Shown: piece after piece, positions 5,885 through 10,842 of the stretch
How the letters are laid out: the number at the start of each line of letters is the position of its first letter
Position numbering within the stretch: the first letter of the stretch is position 1
UHGV virus genome: UHGV-0078064
Direction: 5' to 3' (one strand)
Length of the DNA: 14,337 nt
DNA from: a virus
The notes under the pieces: generated by a model
What the model was told of the DNA's origin: nothing
The model's input: only the letters and a program-made list of their open reading frames with translations
The model's database searches: none
Translations under genes and position numbers: made by a program

Positions 5885-6349
5885 CTATCGACGGCACTGC
5901 TGCCAGATAACACCACCGGGGAAACATTCCATCATGATGGCCGTGCGGACATAGGAAGCCAGTTCATCCATCGCTTTCTTGTCTGCTGCCATTTGCTTTG
6001 TGACATCCAGCGCCGCACATTCAGCAGCGTTTTTCAGCGCGTTTTCGATCAACGTTTCAATGTTGGTATCAACACCAGGTTTAACTTTGAACTTATCGGC
6101 ACTGACGGTTACCTTGTTCTGCGCTGGCTCATCACGCTGGATACCAAGGCTGATGTTGTAGATATTGGTCACCGGCTGAGGTGTTTCGATTGCCGCTGCG
6201 TGGATAGCACCATTTGCGATAGCGGCGTCCTTGATGAATGACACTCCATTGCGAATAAGTTCGAAGGAGACGGTGTCACGAATGCGCTGGTCCAGCTCGT
6301 CGATTGCCTTTTGTGCAGCAGAGGTATCAATCTCAACGCCAAGCGTCAT
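5885..6349 (-). CDS. Hypothetical protein, cos-proximal late-strand accessory gene
   Basis: 154-aa ORF (MTLGVEIDTSAAQKAIDELDQRIRDTVSFELIRNG...) with ATG start, 12 nt downstream of the preceding gene's stop, ending 55-60 nt before cosN. No family recognised from memory. Occupies the position of lambda's post-bor ORFs but does not resemble them by size or order. Confidence 0.6.
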   Translation of the reverse strand: MTLGVEIDTSAAQKAIDELDQRIRDTVSFELIRNGVSFIKDAAIANGAIHAAAIETPQPVTNIYNISLGIQRDEPAQNKVTVSADKFKVKPGVDTNIETLIENALKNAAECAALDVTKQMAADKKAMDELASYVRTAIMMECFPGGVIWQQCRR

Positions 6350-6361
6350 CGAAGCGCAATA

Positions 6362-6613
6362 TTACTGCTCACCAAAACGCGTATTGACCAGGTGTTCAAC
6401 GGCAAATTTCTGCCCTTCTGATGTCAGAAAGGTAAAGTGATTTTCTTTCTGGTATTCAGTTGCTGTGTGTCTGGTTTCAGCAAAACCAAGCTCGCGCAAT
6501 TCGGCTGTGCCAGATTTAGAAGGCAGATCACCAGACAGCAACGCGCCACGGAAAAACAGCGCATAAAGCACTTCATTAGCAGCGCCAGATAGCGTAATGA
6601 TTTTGTTACTCAT
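6362..6613 (-). CDS. Hypothetical small protein, cos-proximal late-strand accessory gene
   Basis: 83 aa from the ATG at 6611-6613 (MSNKIITLSGAANEVLYALFFRGALLSGDL...), with AAGGAAA SD about 6 nt upstream. The ORF track's 96-aa version starts at a TTG at 6652 with no SD. No family recognised. Confidence 0.6.
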   Translation of the reverse strand: MSNKIITLSGAANEVLYALFFRGALLSGDLPSKSGTAELRELGFAETRHTATEYQKENHFTFLTSEGQKFAVEHLVNTRFGEQ

Positions 6614-6632
6614 GGAATATTTCCTTTTAGGC

Positions 6633-6686
6633 GTGAGCCTGTCGCACGGCAAAGCCGCCGAAAGTTAACGGTTTGCCCAGGCTCAC
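6633..6686. repeat. Perfect 9-bp inverted repeat GTGAGCCTG / CAGGCTCAC with a 36-bp spacer that contains a nested GGCAAA/TTTGCC pair
   Basis: Read directly: arms at 6633-6641 and 6678-6686, nested complementary hexamers at 6648-6653 and 6672-6677, GTTAAC palindrome in the centre. Lies 20-73 nt upstream of the 83-aa gene start. Confidence 0.7.
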
Positions 6687-6724
6687 AGCTGAAAGACTTT
6701 CTACGATGTGCGCGTGCGATGCGC

Positions 6725-6749
6725 ATAAAAAAGCCGCGTGATGGCGGCT
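6725..6749 (-). terminator. Candidate rho-independent terminator (minus strand)
   Basis: Minus-strand RNA: AGCCGC-CAUCAC-GCGGCU (6-bp GC-rich stem, 6-nt loop) followed by UUUUUAU. The + strand tail is weaker (ACUGUUUG). Confidence 0.55.
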
Positions 6750-6878
6750 ACTGTTTGAATATCAGGGTGTTGTTTCGTCTTAACCCTGGTTAATGTAGGC
6801 ATTCAGCCCGTCGGTGGTGGGACACTGGCGCACTTAATAAAGAGTACTGGCTGATTACCTCAGAATAAGGAATCAAAA

Positions 6879-7139
6879 ATGTCAGAAGGTTTTGGTTTAA
6901 AAGAAAAGGTTGAGCAGTTAGAAAAAGAATTAGCCGTACAAAAAATAGCAAATCAGCTTGCTTTTGGAGCACTAATTAAAGCAGTTAATGAGCTGTACCC
7001 GAACAAAGATTTATATGATGGGTTGACAAAATTTGTCCAGGAAAAACTTGATCCTGAACGTGTTAAAAACATCCCTAATCTTCACGAGGCCTTTCTAGAA
7101 GCTGCGAAAATACTGAGGACTGACGCATCTCCTGAATAA
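6879..7139 (+). CDS. Hypothetical protein encoded on the opposite strand, AT-rich (moron-like)
   Basis: 86-aa ORF (MSEGFGLKEKVEQLEKELAVQKIANQLAFGALIKAVNELYPNKDLYDGL...), with AAGGA SD 7 nt upstream of the ATG. Conspicuously AT-rich relative to flanking phage genes. It is the only convincing + strand gene in the window and sits where lambda has bor (also opposite strand), but the product is not Bor-like and has no lipoprotein signal. Confidence 0.6.
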   Translation: MSEGFGLKEKVEQLEKELAVQKIANQLAFGALIKAVNELYPNKDLYDGLTKFVQEKLDPERVKNIPNLHEAFLEAAKILRTDASPE

Positions 7140-7233
7140 TTTTATCAACAAAGGCAGTTGTGTCCTCTTGCTTTTCATTCACAATGCATGTGACTGCCTT
7201 TTCTAAAGCTGTAATTCGTTCTTCAAGTGTCAT
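7075..7233 (-). CDS. Possible small ORF (52 aa) convergent with and overlapping the 3' end of the + strand gene
   Basis: ATG at 7231-7233 (MTLEERITALEKAVTCIVNEKQEDTTAFVDKIIQEMRQSSVFSQLLERPRED) preceded by AGGAG with 5-nt spacing. Overlaps the + gene by 65 bp. The ORF track extends it to a TTG at 7257. Coding status uncertain. Confidence 0.3.
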   Translation of the reverse strand: MTLEERITALEKAVTCIVNEKQEDTTAFVDKIIQEMRQSSVFSQLLERPRED

Positions 7234-7292
7234 ACCCACTCCTGTCATTGGCTTCAAAATGATAAACCCCGCATTTGCAAGTCCTATTTATA

Positions 7293-7331
7293 CCCCGCAG
7301 GGGATAAAAACCATATTATCCGCTTGCGGGG
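7293..7331. repeat. Imperfect palindrome CCCCGCAGGGGATAA-(8 nt)-TTATCCGCTTGCGGGG
   Basis: Read directly: GGATAA/TTATCC (6 bp) and CCCCGC/GCGGGG (6 bp) arms separated by a small internal loop. No clean U-tract on either strand. On the minus strand it abuts a TATAAAT element. Confidence 0.6.
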
Positions 7332-7373
7332 ATATCCATTATCAAGCCCACCAGCAGGTGAGCTTTGGAATGG

Positions 7374-7631
7374 TTACTTCGCTTTTGCTTCCGCTCGCTT
7401 ACGCCGGCGCTCTTCTTTCCTCTCGGCTTTTGCCATGTCCATGAATGCCTGCATGATCGAGTTCCGCATCATGTAGCTGACAAAGTGATGGTTGACACAG
7501 CCGTTGAGGCGCAGCTGCTCGCCAAACTCATCCACCGAGGCCAATGCTTCCATCATGCCCTTCTCGCCTTTCATGAACTCTGAGAAGTCGCGCCCCGCTC
7601 TGGAGGCGCATTCTATTATTCGGGTGCTCAT
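7374..7631 (-). CDS. Hypothetical small protein with a lysine/arginine-rich C-terminal tail, coupled to the upstream KilA-N gene
   Basis: 85 aa from the ATG at 7629-7631 (MSTRIIECASRAGRDFSEFMKGEKGMMEALASVDEFGEQL...AKAERKEERRRKRAEAKAK). Its start is 2 nt after the KilA-N gene stop (TGAtcATG). The ORF track's 105-aa version overlaps the upstream gene. Confidence 0.55.
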   Translation of the reverse strand: MSTRIIECASRAGRDFSEFMKGEKGMMEALASVDEFGEQLRLNGCVNHHFVSYMMRNSIMQAFMDMAKAERKEERRRKRAEAKAK

Positions 7632-10218: not shown

Positions 10219-10842
10219 CTAACGTGTGACTGCGTTCAAAATGTTGCCTGCGATTGACTCTTCCTTGTGGCATTGCACCACCAGAGCGTCATACAGCGGC
10301 TTAACAGTGCGTGACCAGGTGGGTTGGGTAAGGTTTGGGATTAGCATCGTCACAGCGCGATATGCTGCGCTTGCAGGCATCCTTGAATAACCGACGCCTT
10401 TACATCTTCCGCACTCTTTCTCAACAACTCTCCCCCACTGCTCTGTTTTTGCTATATCAACTGCCCGACCTGTTCCGTGGCAATCTCTGCATCTTGCGCC
10501 CGGCGTCGCAGCACTACGGCAATAATCCGCATAAGCGAATGTTGCGAGCACTTGCAGTACCTTTGCCTTAGTATTTCCTTCGAGCTTTGCCACACCACGG
10601 TATTTCCCCGATACCTTGTGTGCAAATTGCATCAGATAGTTGATAGCCTTTTGTTTGTCGTTCTGGCTGAGTTCATGCTTACCGCAGAATGCAGCCATTC
10701 CGAATCCGGCTTGTGATTGCGCCATCCCCATAGCAGCCATAACATCAGTACCGGAAAGAGAGTCAGAAGCCGTAGCCCGTGGTGAGTCGCTCATCATCGG
10801 GCTTTTTGGCGAATGAAATTTAGCTACGCTTTCGAGTCTCAT
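10219..10842 (-). CDS. Q: Late-gene antiterminator Q
   Basis: 207 aa, essentially identical to lambda Q as recalled (MRLESVAKFHSPKSPMMSDSPRATASDSL...CRDCHGTGRAVD...ECGRCKGVGY...). Start overlaps the ninH stop. Confidence 0.95.
   Translation of the reverse strand: MRLESVAKFHSPKSPMMSDSPRATASDSLSGTDVMAAMGMAQSQAGFGMAAFCGKHELSQNDKQKAINYLMQFAHKVSGKYRGVAKLEGNTKAKVLQVLATFAYADYCRSAATPGARCRDCHGTGRAVDIAKTEQWGRVVEKECGRCKGVGYSRMPASAAYRAVTMLIPNLTQPTWSRTVKPLYDALVVQCHKEESIAGNILNAVTR

What the first reader, a model, noticed from the sequence alone, without database searches (positions are those of the whole stretch)
6879..7233. AT-rich opposite-strand gene with a convergent, overlapping small ORF
The 86-aa + strand ORF is the only convincing gene opposing the late operon. 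It is visibly more AT-rich than its surroundings and has a good SD, hallmarks of a horizontally acquired moron expressed independently of late transcription, possibly from the prophage state. It sits where lambda carries bor but is not Bor-like. A 52-aa minus-strand ORF with a strong AGGAG SD runs convergently and overlaps its last 65 bp. If both are expressed the transcripts are mutually antisense, an arrangement seen in antisense-regulated toxin/antitoxin or exclusion modules. I recognise neither product.
Basis: partly seen in the sequence, partly recalled or inferred. Interest (0 to 1): 0.6.

Follow-up and report, generated by a model that had tools for sequence, protein, structure and literature searches.

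The report
Forward/reverse moron pair in lambdoid prophage
The AT-rich 86-codon gene and the small gene overlapping its end are both real and form a mobile add-on cassette of a type first annotated in phages HK97 and HK022; the backward-facing gene sits behind a widely conserved, folded RNA leader that no one seems to have described.

Summary
There is an 86-aa + strand ORF (6879-7139) and a 52-aa - strand ORF (7075-7233). They overlap by 65 bp, both have Shine-Dalgarno (SD) sequences, and GC is 0.37 against 0.50 for the window.

Both ORFs are real genes. The pair is kept as a unit in prophages with unrelated lysis, terminase and tail modules, and also in loci where the 86-aa protein is only 28-37% identical.

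It is not a new kind of element. The roughly 590-bp segment 6728-7315 matches the "moron + reverse moron" module annotated in HK97 (gp22/gp23), HK022 (gp22/gp23 "srb") and ES18 (gp24/gp25). Its parts are:
- a minus-strand intrinsic terminator (6732-6749);
- a conserved promoter-like block;
- a structured + strand 5' leader (6803-6878);
- the reverse gene;
- a convergent forward gene co-oriented with the late operon.

The leader shows strong covariation. It recurs in more than 120 viral contigs, in front of at least 12 unrelated-looking small cargo genes, and it matches no Rfam family.

No toxin/antitoxin or defence signature was found. The likeliest reading is a lysogen-expressed accessory gene that convergent late transcription switches off. 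Expression is inferred, not shown, and the function of both proteins is unknown.

The parts
6726..6749 (-). Intrinsic terminator for minus-strand (late-operon-sense) transcripts. The stem is AGCCGC/GCGGCU (6749-6732) and is followed by UUUUUU.
   Evidence: Found by the terminator scan. The hairpin is kept in 4 of 5 diverged lineages. One lineage has a compensatory G-C to A-U change. One variant pairs only through G.U on the minus strand. Many GCCGC/GCGGC and GCCAC/GUGGC variants appear in alignment A6. The equivalent site is annotated as a putative terminator in HK97 and ES18.
6750..6802 (+). Conserved promoter-like block (CTACTGTTTGAATATCAGGGTGTTG...CCCTGGTTAATGT). The candidate -10 is TAATGT at 6791-6796. 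The -35 is poor.
   Evidence: The block is 75-87% identical in HK97, HK022, ES18, HK633 and Salmonella phages, although their downstream proteins differ. A TAnnnT hexamer sits at -12 to -7 relative to the first base of the leader across alignment A6. The block is also found joined to unrelated leaders, so it is a separable module. No strong conserved sigma-70 match was found.
6803..6878 (+). Structured 5' leader RNA of the reverse gene. P1 pairs 6803-6808 with 6849-6854. P2 pairs 6809-6816 with 6823-6830. P3 pairs 6840-6845 with 6858-6863; it crosses P1, so it is an alternative fold or a pseudoknot. The SD is AAGGA at 6867-6871.
   Evidence: Based on 112 distinct leaders (A7) and pair counts. 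P2 is 97% paired, and 6 of its 8 pairs show changes on both sides. One P2 pair is U.G in 61 of 112 sequences, which is valid only in the + strand RNA. P1 is 98.7% paired and its one-sided changes are all wobbles. None of 500 shuffles reached the observed covariation. The MFE fold of the window sequence reproduces P1 and P2 (-21.3 kcal/mol, z -2.1). There is no Rfam match on this strand.
6879..7139 (+). Reverse-moron gene encoding an 86-aa protein (phrog_21164) of unknown function. It is predicted all-helical, with a long N-terminal helix over residues 3-39.
   Evidence: pN/pS is 0.08-0.25 outside the overlap. Only 8 close protein clusters exist among 5.8 billion. Remote relatives of 80-114 aa were found with a profile search; HK633 gp65 belongs to the same remote subfamily. 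AF2 models have pLDDT 67-69. No Pfam, PADLOC or PDB fold match was found.
7150..7203 (+). Putative terminator hairpin of the reverse gene. The arms are 7150-7160 and 7191-7201, followed by UUUUCU. It lies inside the coding region of the 52-aa gene.
   Evidence: The stem is 94.5% paired in 5 lineages. Two pairs change on both sides, and the G.U pairs are valid only on the + strand. Support is weak: the folding z-score is -0.6, 185 of 500 shuffles do as well, and the loop is long (22-32 nt). HK97 has a putative + strand terminator annotated at the equivalent place.
7075..7243 (-). Forward-moron gene encoding a 52-aa protein (phrog_28630), with SD AGGAG at 7243-7239. It is co-oriented with the late operon and overlaps the last 65 bp of the reverse gene.
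   Evidence: The ORF is open, with a conserved start and SD, in all five lineages; one lineage has an in-frame 15-nt deletion. It is the only one of six frames without stops. Replacements are conservative (mean BLOSUM +0.58, against -0.65 to -1.5 in the other frames). pN/pS is 0.62 overall and 0.35 in the first 13 codons. Homologous partner ORFs of 71, 99 and 125 aa lie convergent to remote homologues of the 86-aa gene. Long relatives belong to phrog_11851, which includes HK97 gp22.
6728..7315 (.). Extent of the variable, mobile segment at this site.
   Evidence: Homology to phages that carry other cargo at this site (SaltyDalty, Fraca) ends at about 6724-6727 on the left and resumes at 7316 on the right. 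The minimal shared cassette, seen in tail-gene contexts (L008, L012), runs from about 6728 to 7250.

Best explanation
**Identity.** Window 6728-7315 is a mobile accessory cassette of the HK97 gp22/gp23 type, a "moron plus reverse moron". It holds two convergent transcription units.

**Reverse unit (+ strand).** It has a conserved promoter-like block, a roughly 76-nt structured leader whose 5' end is predicted to be base-paired, the 86-aa gene, and a weak hairpin terminator.

**Forward unit (- strand).** It is a 52-aa gene with a strong SD. It has no cassette-internal promoter in the minimal form and always points the same way as the phage late genes. A good intrinsic terminator, placed just past the reverse promoter, ends it.

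**Inferred mechanism.**
- In the lysogen the late operon is silent. The reverse gene is then transcribed from its own promoter, and the two terminators insulate it from the structural genes.
- After induction, Q-antiterminated late transcription reads through the forward gene. It then runs antisense across the whole reverse gene and its promoter, ignoring the terminator.
- The result is that the 52-aa late protein is made while the reverse gene is shut off, by promoter occlusion, polymerase collision and antisense RNA.

**Protein function.** The 86-aa helical protein is most likely a lysogen-stage accessory factor acting on the host or on competing phages. It is one of many interchangeable cargos carried behind the same leader.

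**Shown versus inferred.** The anatomy, the reality of both genes, mobility, the RNA structure and the homology of the architecture are shown. Promoter activity, timing of expression, interference and protein function are inferred.
For: **Mobility and composition.**
- The pair is kept as a unit next to different terminase, lysis and tail modules, and between tail genes L and M in L008.
- It is replaced by other cargo at the same site.
- GC is 0.37 against 0.50 for the window.

**Both genes are real.** The overlap is the most conserved DNA in the cassette: mean pairwise identity 0.90 against 0.72-0.76 elsewhere.

**The architecture is conserved far beyond sequence similarity.**
- Remote homologues at 28-37% identity also have a convergent, overlapping partner ORF.
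- Of 73 distinct leader-plus-cargo instances, 69 have a convergent ORF and 48 overlap it.

**Homology to the annotated modules.**
- The upstream block and leader match HK97, HK022, ES18 and HK633.
- Those records annotate a "reverse moron product", a "moron product" and flanking putative terminators.

**Strand-specific RNA elements.**
- The terminator works only on the minus strand.
- The leader helices are valid only on the + strand and covary strongly.

**Orientation.** In every locus examined the flanking phage genes lie on the strand of the small ORF.

**Read-through dependence.** In L024 a terminator sits immediately upstream of the partner gene's SD. That fits expression by antiterminated read-through.
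Against: - No expression data of any kind were available.
- The promoter is only a conserved TAnnnT hexamer with a poor -35.
- The + strand terminator hairpin is thermodynamically unremarkable, and its comparative support is not significant with five sequences.
- A promoter-like site lies about 80 nt upstream of the small ORF in this window (TTGATA-19-GATAAT, ending 7315). The forward gene might therefore also be expressed in lysogens.
- The overlap is not universal: 21 of 69 partners do not overlap. Antisense coupling may be incidental.
- The small ORF shows only weak purifying selection overall (pN/pS 0.62).
Confidence: 0.55

Rival explanations
1. These are two independent morons packed tail to tail. 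The overlap and the convergent arrangement are only a by-product of compact insertion and shared terminators. There is no regulatory cross-talk and no functional link between the two proteins.
For: The overlap ranges from +68 bp down to gaps of more than 100 nt, and 21 of 69 partners do not overlap. The same forward family (phrog_11851 and short forms sharing the MTLEERxxALE N-terminus) is found with many unrelated reverse cargos. ES18 gp24 and gp25 do not overlap.
Against: A convergent partner is present in 69 of 73 instances, and the arrangement persists at 28-37% protein identity. The forward terminator is always placed beyond the reverse promoter, so forward transcripts must cross the whole reverse unit. 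Synonymous change in the 86-aa gene drops 2- to 6-fold inside the overlap.
Confidence: 0.28
2. This is an antisense-controlled toxin/antitoxin or abortive-infection module. The 86-aa protein is toxic, and the minus-strand transcript or the 52-aa protein keeps it in check.
For: The transcripts would be convergent and mutually antisense. The pair is always inherited together within its family. The cassette lies in a region of accessory genes; in L016 and L017 its neighbour is Tad2-like.
Against: There are no PADLOC or Pfam matches for either protein. Neither sequence shows a long hydrophobic stretch on reading, and the 86-aa protein is predicted all-helical. The overlap is 3' to 3' and does not cover the ribosome-binding site of the supposed toxin. 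The minimal cassette has no promoter for a dedicated antisense RNA. Cargo swapping against a constant partner family argues against a matched pair.
Confidence: 0.1
3. The 52-aa ORF is not a gene. Its conservation only reflects the C-terminal coding constraint of the 86-aa gene plus the + strand terminator hairpin.
For: NCBI's PGAP annotation does not call it. pN/pS is only 0.5-1.0 in pairwise comparisons. A conserved hairpin lies inside it. In the overlap, substitutions are synonymous for the 86-aa frame and replace residues in the small frame.
Against: It is the only frame open in all lineages, and one lineage carries an in-frame 15-nt deletion. The ATG and SD are conserved in ten loci. Replacements are conservative. 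Between the window and L008, Leu3 and Leu10 are each kept by two-base codon changes (read from the alignment). Recognisable protein homologues of 71, 99 and 125 aa occur in the same position at remote loci, and the long forms match PHROG family phrog_11851.
Confidence: 0.07

Closest known systems
HK97 gp22 ('moron product') / gp23 ('reverse moron product'), NC_002167 14475-15129 (annotation of Juhala et al. 2000)
   Same: It has the same layout: forward gene, convergent overlapping reverse gene of 86 aa, a minus-sense terminator beyond the reverse promoter, and a putative + terminator at the end of the reverse gene. The upstream block and leader are homologous at 75.6% over 123 nt, with the same P1 and P2 helices. 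Long relatives of the 52-aa protein fall in the same PHROG as gp22.
   Different: It lies between tail genes I and J, not between lysis and terminase genes. The gp23 protein is not detectably related to the 86-aa protein (hhalign E 0.26). gp22 has 120 aa against 52, and the overlap is 123 bp against 65.
HK022 gp22 / gp23 ('srb protein'), and ES18 gp24 (DUF1327) / gp25
   Same: The leader is the same (81% and 86% identity). Both pairs are convergent and are annotated as morons. ES18 gp25 shows a marginal profile match to the 86-aa family (E 0.006 over 49 columns).
   Different: HK022 gp23 is unrelated in sequence (E 0.42). The ES18 pair does not overlap and its forward gene belongs to another family. 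I found no paper explaining 'srb'.
HK633 gp65 (81 aa, hypothetical)
   Same: It belongs to the same remote 'MGSM...' subfamily as the profile-search homologues of the 86-aa protein. It has the same leader (85% identity). It also lies in the interval between the lysis genes and the terminase end of the genome. An unannotated 111-aa convergent partner ends in ...SSELFSQLS.
   Different: By sequence it belongs with the remote homologues, which are 28-37% identical to the 86-aa protein. Its partner is the long form, phrog_11851.
Classical morons: lambda bor, HK97 gp15
   Same: These are extra genes within late regions. They have deviant base composition, are flanked by a promoter and a terminator, and are expressed from the prophage (general knowledge; PMC3594210).
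   Different: Bor is a lipoprotein and gp15 is an inner-membrane exclusion protein. The proteins here are soluble-looking helical proteins with no match to either. Here there are two convergent genes rather than one.
Convergent or antisense control in temperate phages (lambda OOP/cII; coliphage 186 pR/pL interference)
   Same: This is the proposed working principle: opposing transcription across a gene and its promoter gives stage-specific silencing (general knowledge).
   Different: There is no sequence relationship. No dedicated antisense RNA promoter was found here. The effect has not been tested.

Membership tests
Moron (Juhala/Hendrix definition) | Extra DNA between genes that are adjacent in related phages | tested here: met
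   The flanks 6650-6738 and 7316-7377 are shared with phages that carry other or shorter inserts. The cassette is present in only 4 of 5,426 complete E. coli genomes.
Moron (Juhala/Hendrix definition) | Base composition unlike the surrounding genome | tested here: met
   GC is 0.372 against 0.500 +/- 0.038. GC3 is 0.276 against about 0.5.
Moron (Juhala/Hendrix definition) | Own transcription terminator | tested here: met
   The minus-strand terminator 6749-6726 shows compensatory changes. The + strand hairpin 7150-7203 is only putative.
Moron (Juhala/Hendrix definition) | Own promoter, active in the lysogen | tested here: inconclusive
   A conserved block carries TAnnnT at -12 to -7 of the leader start. 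The -35 is weak and no consensus promoter was found. Activity cannot be tested with these tools.
HK97 gp22/gp23-type forward/reverse moron module | Convergent gene pair: forward gene co-oriented with the late genes, reverse gene opposed | tested here: met
HK97 gp22/gp23-type forward/reverse moron module | Homologous upstream block and structured leader in front of the reverse gene | tested here: met
   blastn identity is 75-87% to HK97, HK022, ES18 and HK633. Helices P1 and P2 are shared and covary.
HK97 gp22/gp23-type forward/reverse moron module | Forward protein related to gp22 (phrog_11851) | tested here: inconclusive
   The 52-aa protein itself hits only phrog_28630. It shares the MTLEERxxALE N-terminus and the ..V.DKII.. 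/ SS.FSQL motifs with the 111-125-aa partners, which do match phrog_11851.
HK97 gp22/gp23-type forward/reverse moron module | Reverse protein related to gp23 | tested here: not met
   hhalign E is 0.26 for HK97 gp23 and 0.42 for HK022 gp23. The cargo behind this leader is hypervariable, so this feature may not define the module.
Type I (antisense RNA) toxin/antitoxin | Small hydrophobic membrane toxin, with an antisense RNA covering its leader or ribosome-binding site | tested here: not met
   The sequences show no long hydrophobic stretch on reading; no transmembrane predictor was run. The overlap is 3' to 3'. There is no PADLOC or Pfam match. No dedicated antisense promoter is conserved.
Lambda Bor | Bor lipoprotein family sequence | tested here: not met
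   No Pfam match at E <= 1.
Rfam isrK (RF01394) | Score at or above the family gathering threshold (50 bits) | tested here: not met
   The hit is 17.6 bits on the minus strand, 6727-6807. It appears to be driven by a hairpin plus the terminator.

The most novel reading that the evidence does not exclude
The promoter-like block plus the P1/P2/P3 leader may be an undescribed, portable cis-regulatory RNA platform. It would drive a rapidly exchanging set of small "reverse moron" genes in hundreds of enterobacterial siphophage and prophage genomes. The supporting observations are:
- at least 12 unrelated-looking cargo families (75 distinct proteins in a capped sample);
- a constant gp22-like partner gene on the other side of the cargo.

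This would be a cassette-exchange locus, plausibly for phage-host or phage-phage conflict. Its expression would be set by the leader's alternative folds (P1 against P3, an internal SD/anti-SD-like GGAGG/CCUC pairing) and by convergent late transcription.
Probability: 0.4. Interest if true: 0.65.

Novelty: new member of a known kind. Interest (0 to 1): 0.42.

Why it matters
The gene pair itself is one more example of an architecture annotated in HK97 and HK022 in 2000 and never explained.

The wider value lies in what the comparison exposed. One conserved promoter-like block and one structured leader serve very many different small proteins of unknown function, always opposed to the late operon and usually overlapped by a gp22-like late gene.

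That gives a simple way to find lysogen-stage accessory genes in enterobacterial prophages: search for the leader. It also gives a defined RNA element for regulatory tests, and a tractable model, since mEp213 and mEp043 grow on E. coli K-12. With that model one could test whether convergent late transcription is a general off-switch for prophage accessory genes.

Tried and rejected
- **Pfam, PADLOC and PHROG on both proteins.** Only two tiny PHROGs of unknown function matched.
- **Rfam at gathering and permissive thresholds.** Nothing on the + strand leader. A sub-threshold isrK hit on the minus strand was rejected: 17.6 against 50 bits, and the IsrK locus is a different context, downstream of antQ.
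- **AlphaFold2 with 7 and with 11 sequences.** Helices only, pLDDT 67-69 and pTM 0.36-0.46. Foldseek against the PDB gave no match better than E 3.6.
- **Sigma-70 searches.** The consensus scan and my own weight-matrix scan across five lineages found no strong promoter conserved at homologous positions. The AGGACA-16-TAAAAT site inside the small ORF is lost in L004 through a change that is synonymous in the small ORF.
- **Homology of the 86-aa protein to HK97 gp23 or HK022 gp23.** Rejected.
- **"The small ORF is an artefact".** Rejected.
- **+ strand hairpin as a proven terminator.** Not established.
- **Literature searches.** Searches for 'reverse moron', HK022 srb, HK97 gp23 and mEp213/mEp043 found nothing on function. 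The HK97 gp15 paper was not held in the library.
- **IHF-like match.** An IHF-like site (TATCAGGGTGTTG in this window, TATCAGGATGTTG in the alignment consensus) in the upstream block is only a resemblance that I noticed. It was not tested.

Full report
**Context.** The window is a lambdoid prophage or phage segment read against its late genes. The minus strand carries:
- Q (10219-10842), holin, endolysin and Rz (9786-8569);
- a KilA-N/P63C protein (8437-7634) and a phrog_875 gene;
- then the finding;
- then a phrog_17079-type gene, Nu1, the large terminase, W, portal and protease.

The closest records are phages mEp213 and mEp043 and four E. coli chromosomes, at about 99% identity over the region.

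- The 86-aa + ORF (6879-7139) and the 52-aa - ORF (7075-7233) overlap by 65 bp. Both have SD sequences.
- GC of the pair is 0.372. The mean for 355-nt windows is 0.500 with sd 0.038, and only 50 of 13,982 windows are as low. GC3 of the 86-aa gene is 0.276, against about 0.5 in the phage genes.
- No other long + strand ORF has family support.
- Both ORFs are annotated as hypothetical in mEp213 (gp72, gp71). NCBI's PGAP annotation calls only the larger one.

**Both ORFs are genes.**
- The 86-aa protein has only eight close clusters among 5.8 billion proteins, at 70-99% identity, mostly from Enterobacter and E. coli prophages.
- Its gene is under clear purifying selection, with pN/pS 0.08-0.25.
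- In five diverged lineages the small ORF keeps its ATG, its SD and its frame. One lineage has an in-frame 15-nt deletion.
- It is the only one of six frames without stops. Its replacements are conservative: mean BLOSUM +0.58, against -0.65 to -1.5 in the other frames. Codon position 2 varies least.
- pN/pS is 0.62 overall and 0.35 in the first 13 codons.
- The overlap is the most conserved DNA in the cassette: mean pairwise identity 0.90, against 0.72-0.76 elsewhere. Synonymous change in the large gene falls 2- to 6-fold inside it.
- The decisive evidence comes from remote homologues. A profile search of 1.8 billion representatives found relatives of the 86-aa protein at 28-51% identity. Their loci again have a convergent, overlapping partner ORF of 71, 99 or 125 aa.
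- Those partners share the N-terminal M-x-L-E-x-R-V-x-A-L-E motif, the ..V.DKI(I/V).. core and the SS.FSQL tail with the 52-aa protein.
- The long partners belong to phrog_11851, which also includes HK97 gp22.

**It is mobile.**
- The pair sits next to at least four different terminase/portal types and several lysis cassettes. In L008 and L023 it lies between tail genes L and M, and in L028 between I and J. The small ORF is always on the strand of the late genes.
- At the window's own site, SaltyDalty and Fraca share the flanks up to about 6727 and from 7316, but carry an unrelated 64-aa forward gene between them.
- The minimal shared cassette runs from about 6728 to 7250.

**It is a known architecture.**
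- The 130 nt upstream of the 86-aa gene are as conserved as the coding sequence. They stay recognisable even where the protein is only 31% identical (L029).
- A blastn search with this stretch finds it in HK97, HK022, ES18, HK633 and several Salmonella phages.
- In HK97 it precedes Gp23, annotated "reverse moron product". Gp23 is convergent with and overlaps Gp22, annotated "moron product", and putative terminators are annotated on both sides.
- HK022 (gp23 "srb" and gp22) and ES18 (gp25 and gp24) are laid out in the same way.
- The cargo proteins differ. HK97 gp23 and HK022 gp23 are not detectably related to the 86-aa protein, ES18 gp25 is marginal, and HK633 gp65 belongs to the same remote subfamily as the profile-search homologues.
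- I found no publication on the function of any of these proteins.

**The non-coding parts.**

1. *Minus-strand terminator (6749-6726).* It has a GC-rich stem and a U6 tract. The hairpin is kept in 4 of 5 lineages. One lineage has a compensatory G-C to A-U change, and some variants pair only through G.U on the minus strand.

2. *Promoter-like block (6750-6802).* A TAnnnT hexamer lies exactly at -12 to -7 relative to the first leader base (TAATGT, 6791-6796). The -35 is poor. The same block is also found fused to unrelated leaders, so it is a separable module.

3. *Structured leader (6803-6878).* I aligned 112 distinct copies and counted pairs.
   - P2 (6809-6816 with 6823-6830) is 97% paired. 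Six of its eight pairs change on both sides, for example AU 80 / CG 23, GC 87 / AU 23 and UA 82 / CG 23.
   - One P2 pair is U.G in 61 of 112 sequences, which is valid only in the + strand RNA.
   - P1 (6803-6808 with 6849-6854) is 98.7% paired. Its one-sided changes are all wobbles and there is one double change. My first search pattern fixed both arms, so P1 is less well tested.
   - P3 (6840-6845 with 6858-6863) is 81.5% paired and crosses P1.
   - None of 500 shuffles reached the observed covariation, and slid controls collapse to 27-49% paired.
   - The window sequence folds into P1 and P2 on its own.
   - Rfam has nothing on this strand.

4. *Hairpin after the 86-aa stop (7150-7203).* It lies inside the small ORF and is followed by UUUUCU. 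It looks like the reverse gene's terminator and shows some covariation, but the support is weak.

**How widespread the leader is.** Downstream of the leader I found 75 distinct small ORFs of 33-143 aa, mostly 65-135 aa. They fall into at least a dozen unrelated-looking families, including DUF1883 and an aspartyl-protease-like protein. Most have no family match and none hits PADLOC. Of 73 distinct leader-plus-cargo pairs, 69 have a convergent ORF ending inside the cargo or within 150 nt downstream of it, and 48 overlap it. Some of those 69 are simply the next phage gene.

**Interpretation.** The anatomy fits a lysogen-expressed reverse gene, insulated by two terminators. Q-modified late transcription would cross it and probably silence it, while also expressing the small gp22-like forward protein. 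This is inference from layout, orientation and the strand-specific RNA signals. No expression data were available.

The toxin/antitoxin reading has nothing in its favour beyond the convergent layout. Exchange of reverse cargos against a constant partner family speaks against a matched pair. Two independent, tightly packed morons remains a serious rival.

The function of both proteins is unknown. The 86-aa protein is predicted to be helical, with a long N-terminal helix, and has no fold match.

**Verdict.** The finding is real but belongs to a known, functionally unexplained kind. The more interesting result is the conserved structured leader with hypervariable cargo, which appears to be undescribed.

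Noticed in passing
window 6619-6735 (sense on the minus strand): This is a second conserved non-coding element. It lies between the terminator and the next minus-strand gene (ATG at 6613) and contains a long hairpin, GUGAGCCUG...CAGGCUCAC (MFE -40.5 kcal/mol, z -2.6). A 97% identical copy lies in HK639 between the major tail protein gene and HK639_13, and another in Fraca; SaltyDalty has a 91% identical copy. Its first 86-89 nt recur in about 110 of 5,426 E. coli genomes. It looks like the leader of another moron family.
   Followed up: partly
window 5885-6652, minus strand: The gene to the left of the cassette is interrupted by one in-frame stop (...GEQ*YCASMTLGVEID...). The two ORFs (6362-6652 and 5885-6349) match residues 1-83 and 89-242 of the same PHROG, phrog_17079. 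This is either a pseudogene or a natural two-gene form.
   Followed up: partly
window 7269-7333: Three copies of CCCCGCA lie upstream of the small ORF: two on the + strand and one on the - strand. One copy is part of the palindrome CCCCGCAGGGG. A promoter-like TTGATA-19-GATAAT on the minus strand ends at 7315. Part of this region is shared with the Enterobacter loci but not with the minimal cassette.
   Followed up: no
L016 6504-6974; L017 1500-1970: In two loci that carry a 99% identical cassette, the next gene on the lysis side is Tad2-like (PF11195, an anti-Thoeris family). This interval therefore collects counter-defence cargo.
   Followed up: no
window 6727-6807, minus strand: There is a sub-threshold Rfam match to the IsrK sRNA of the Gifsy-1 prophage: 17.6 bits against a gathering score of 50, covering the full model length. 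It consists of a CCAGGG/CCCUGG hairpin, AUAUUCAAAC and the terminator. The 3' end of the forward transcript could give rise to a small RNA.
   Followed up: partly
L155, L167, L184, L198; L161, L164, L170 (IMG/VR loci): The promoter-like block (CTACTG.T.GAATATCAGG...TAnnnT) also occurs joined to two other, unrelated leader sequences. Promoter block and leader therefore recombine independently.
   Followed up: partly
window 6760-6772; alignment A6 columns around -44 to -32: The invariant stretch TATCAGG(A/G)TGTTG fits the IHF consensus WATCAR-N4-TTR and overlaps the weak -35 region. This is a resemblance only.
   Followed up: no
L024 about 6590-6630 (just upstream of the partner ORF at 6212-6589): A strong intrinsic terminator (AACCCGCCGAGCGCGGGTTTTTT) sits immediately upstream of the SD of the 125-aa forward gene. 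In that phage the forward gene can probably be expressed only by antiterminated read-through.
   Followed up: no
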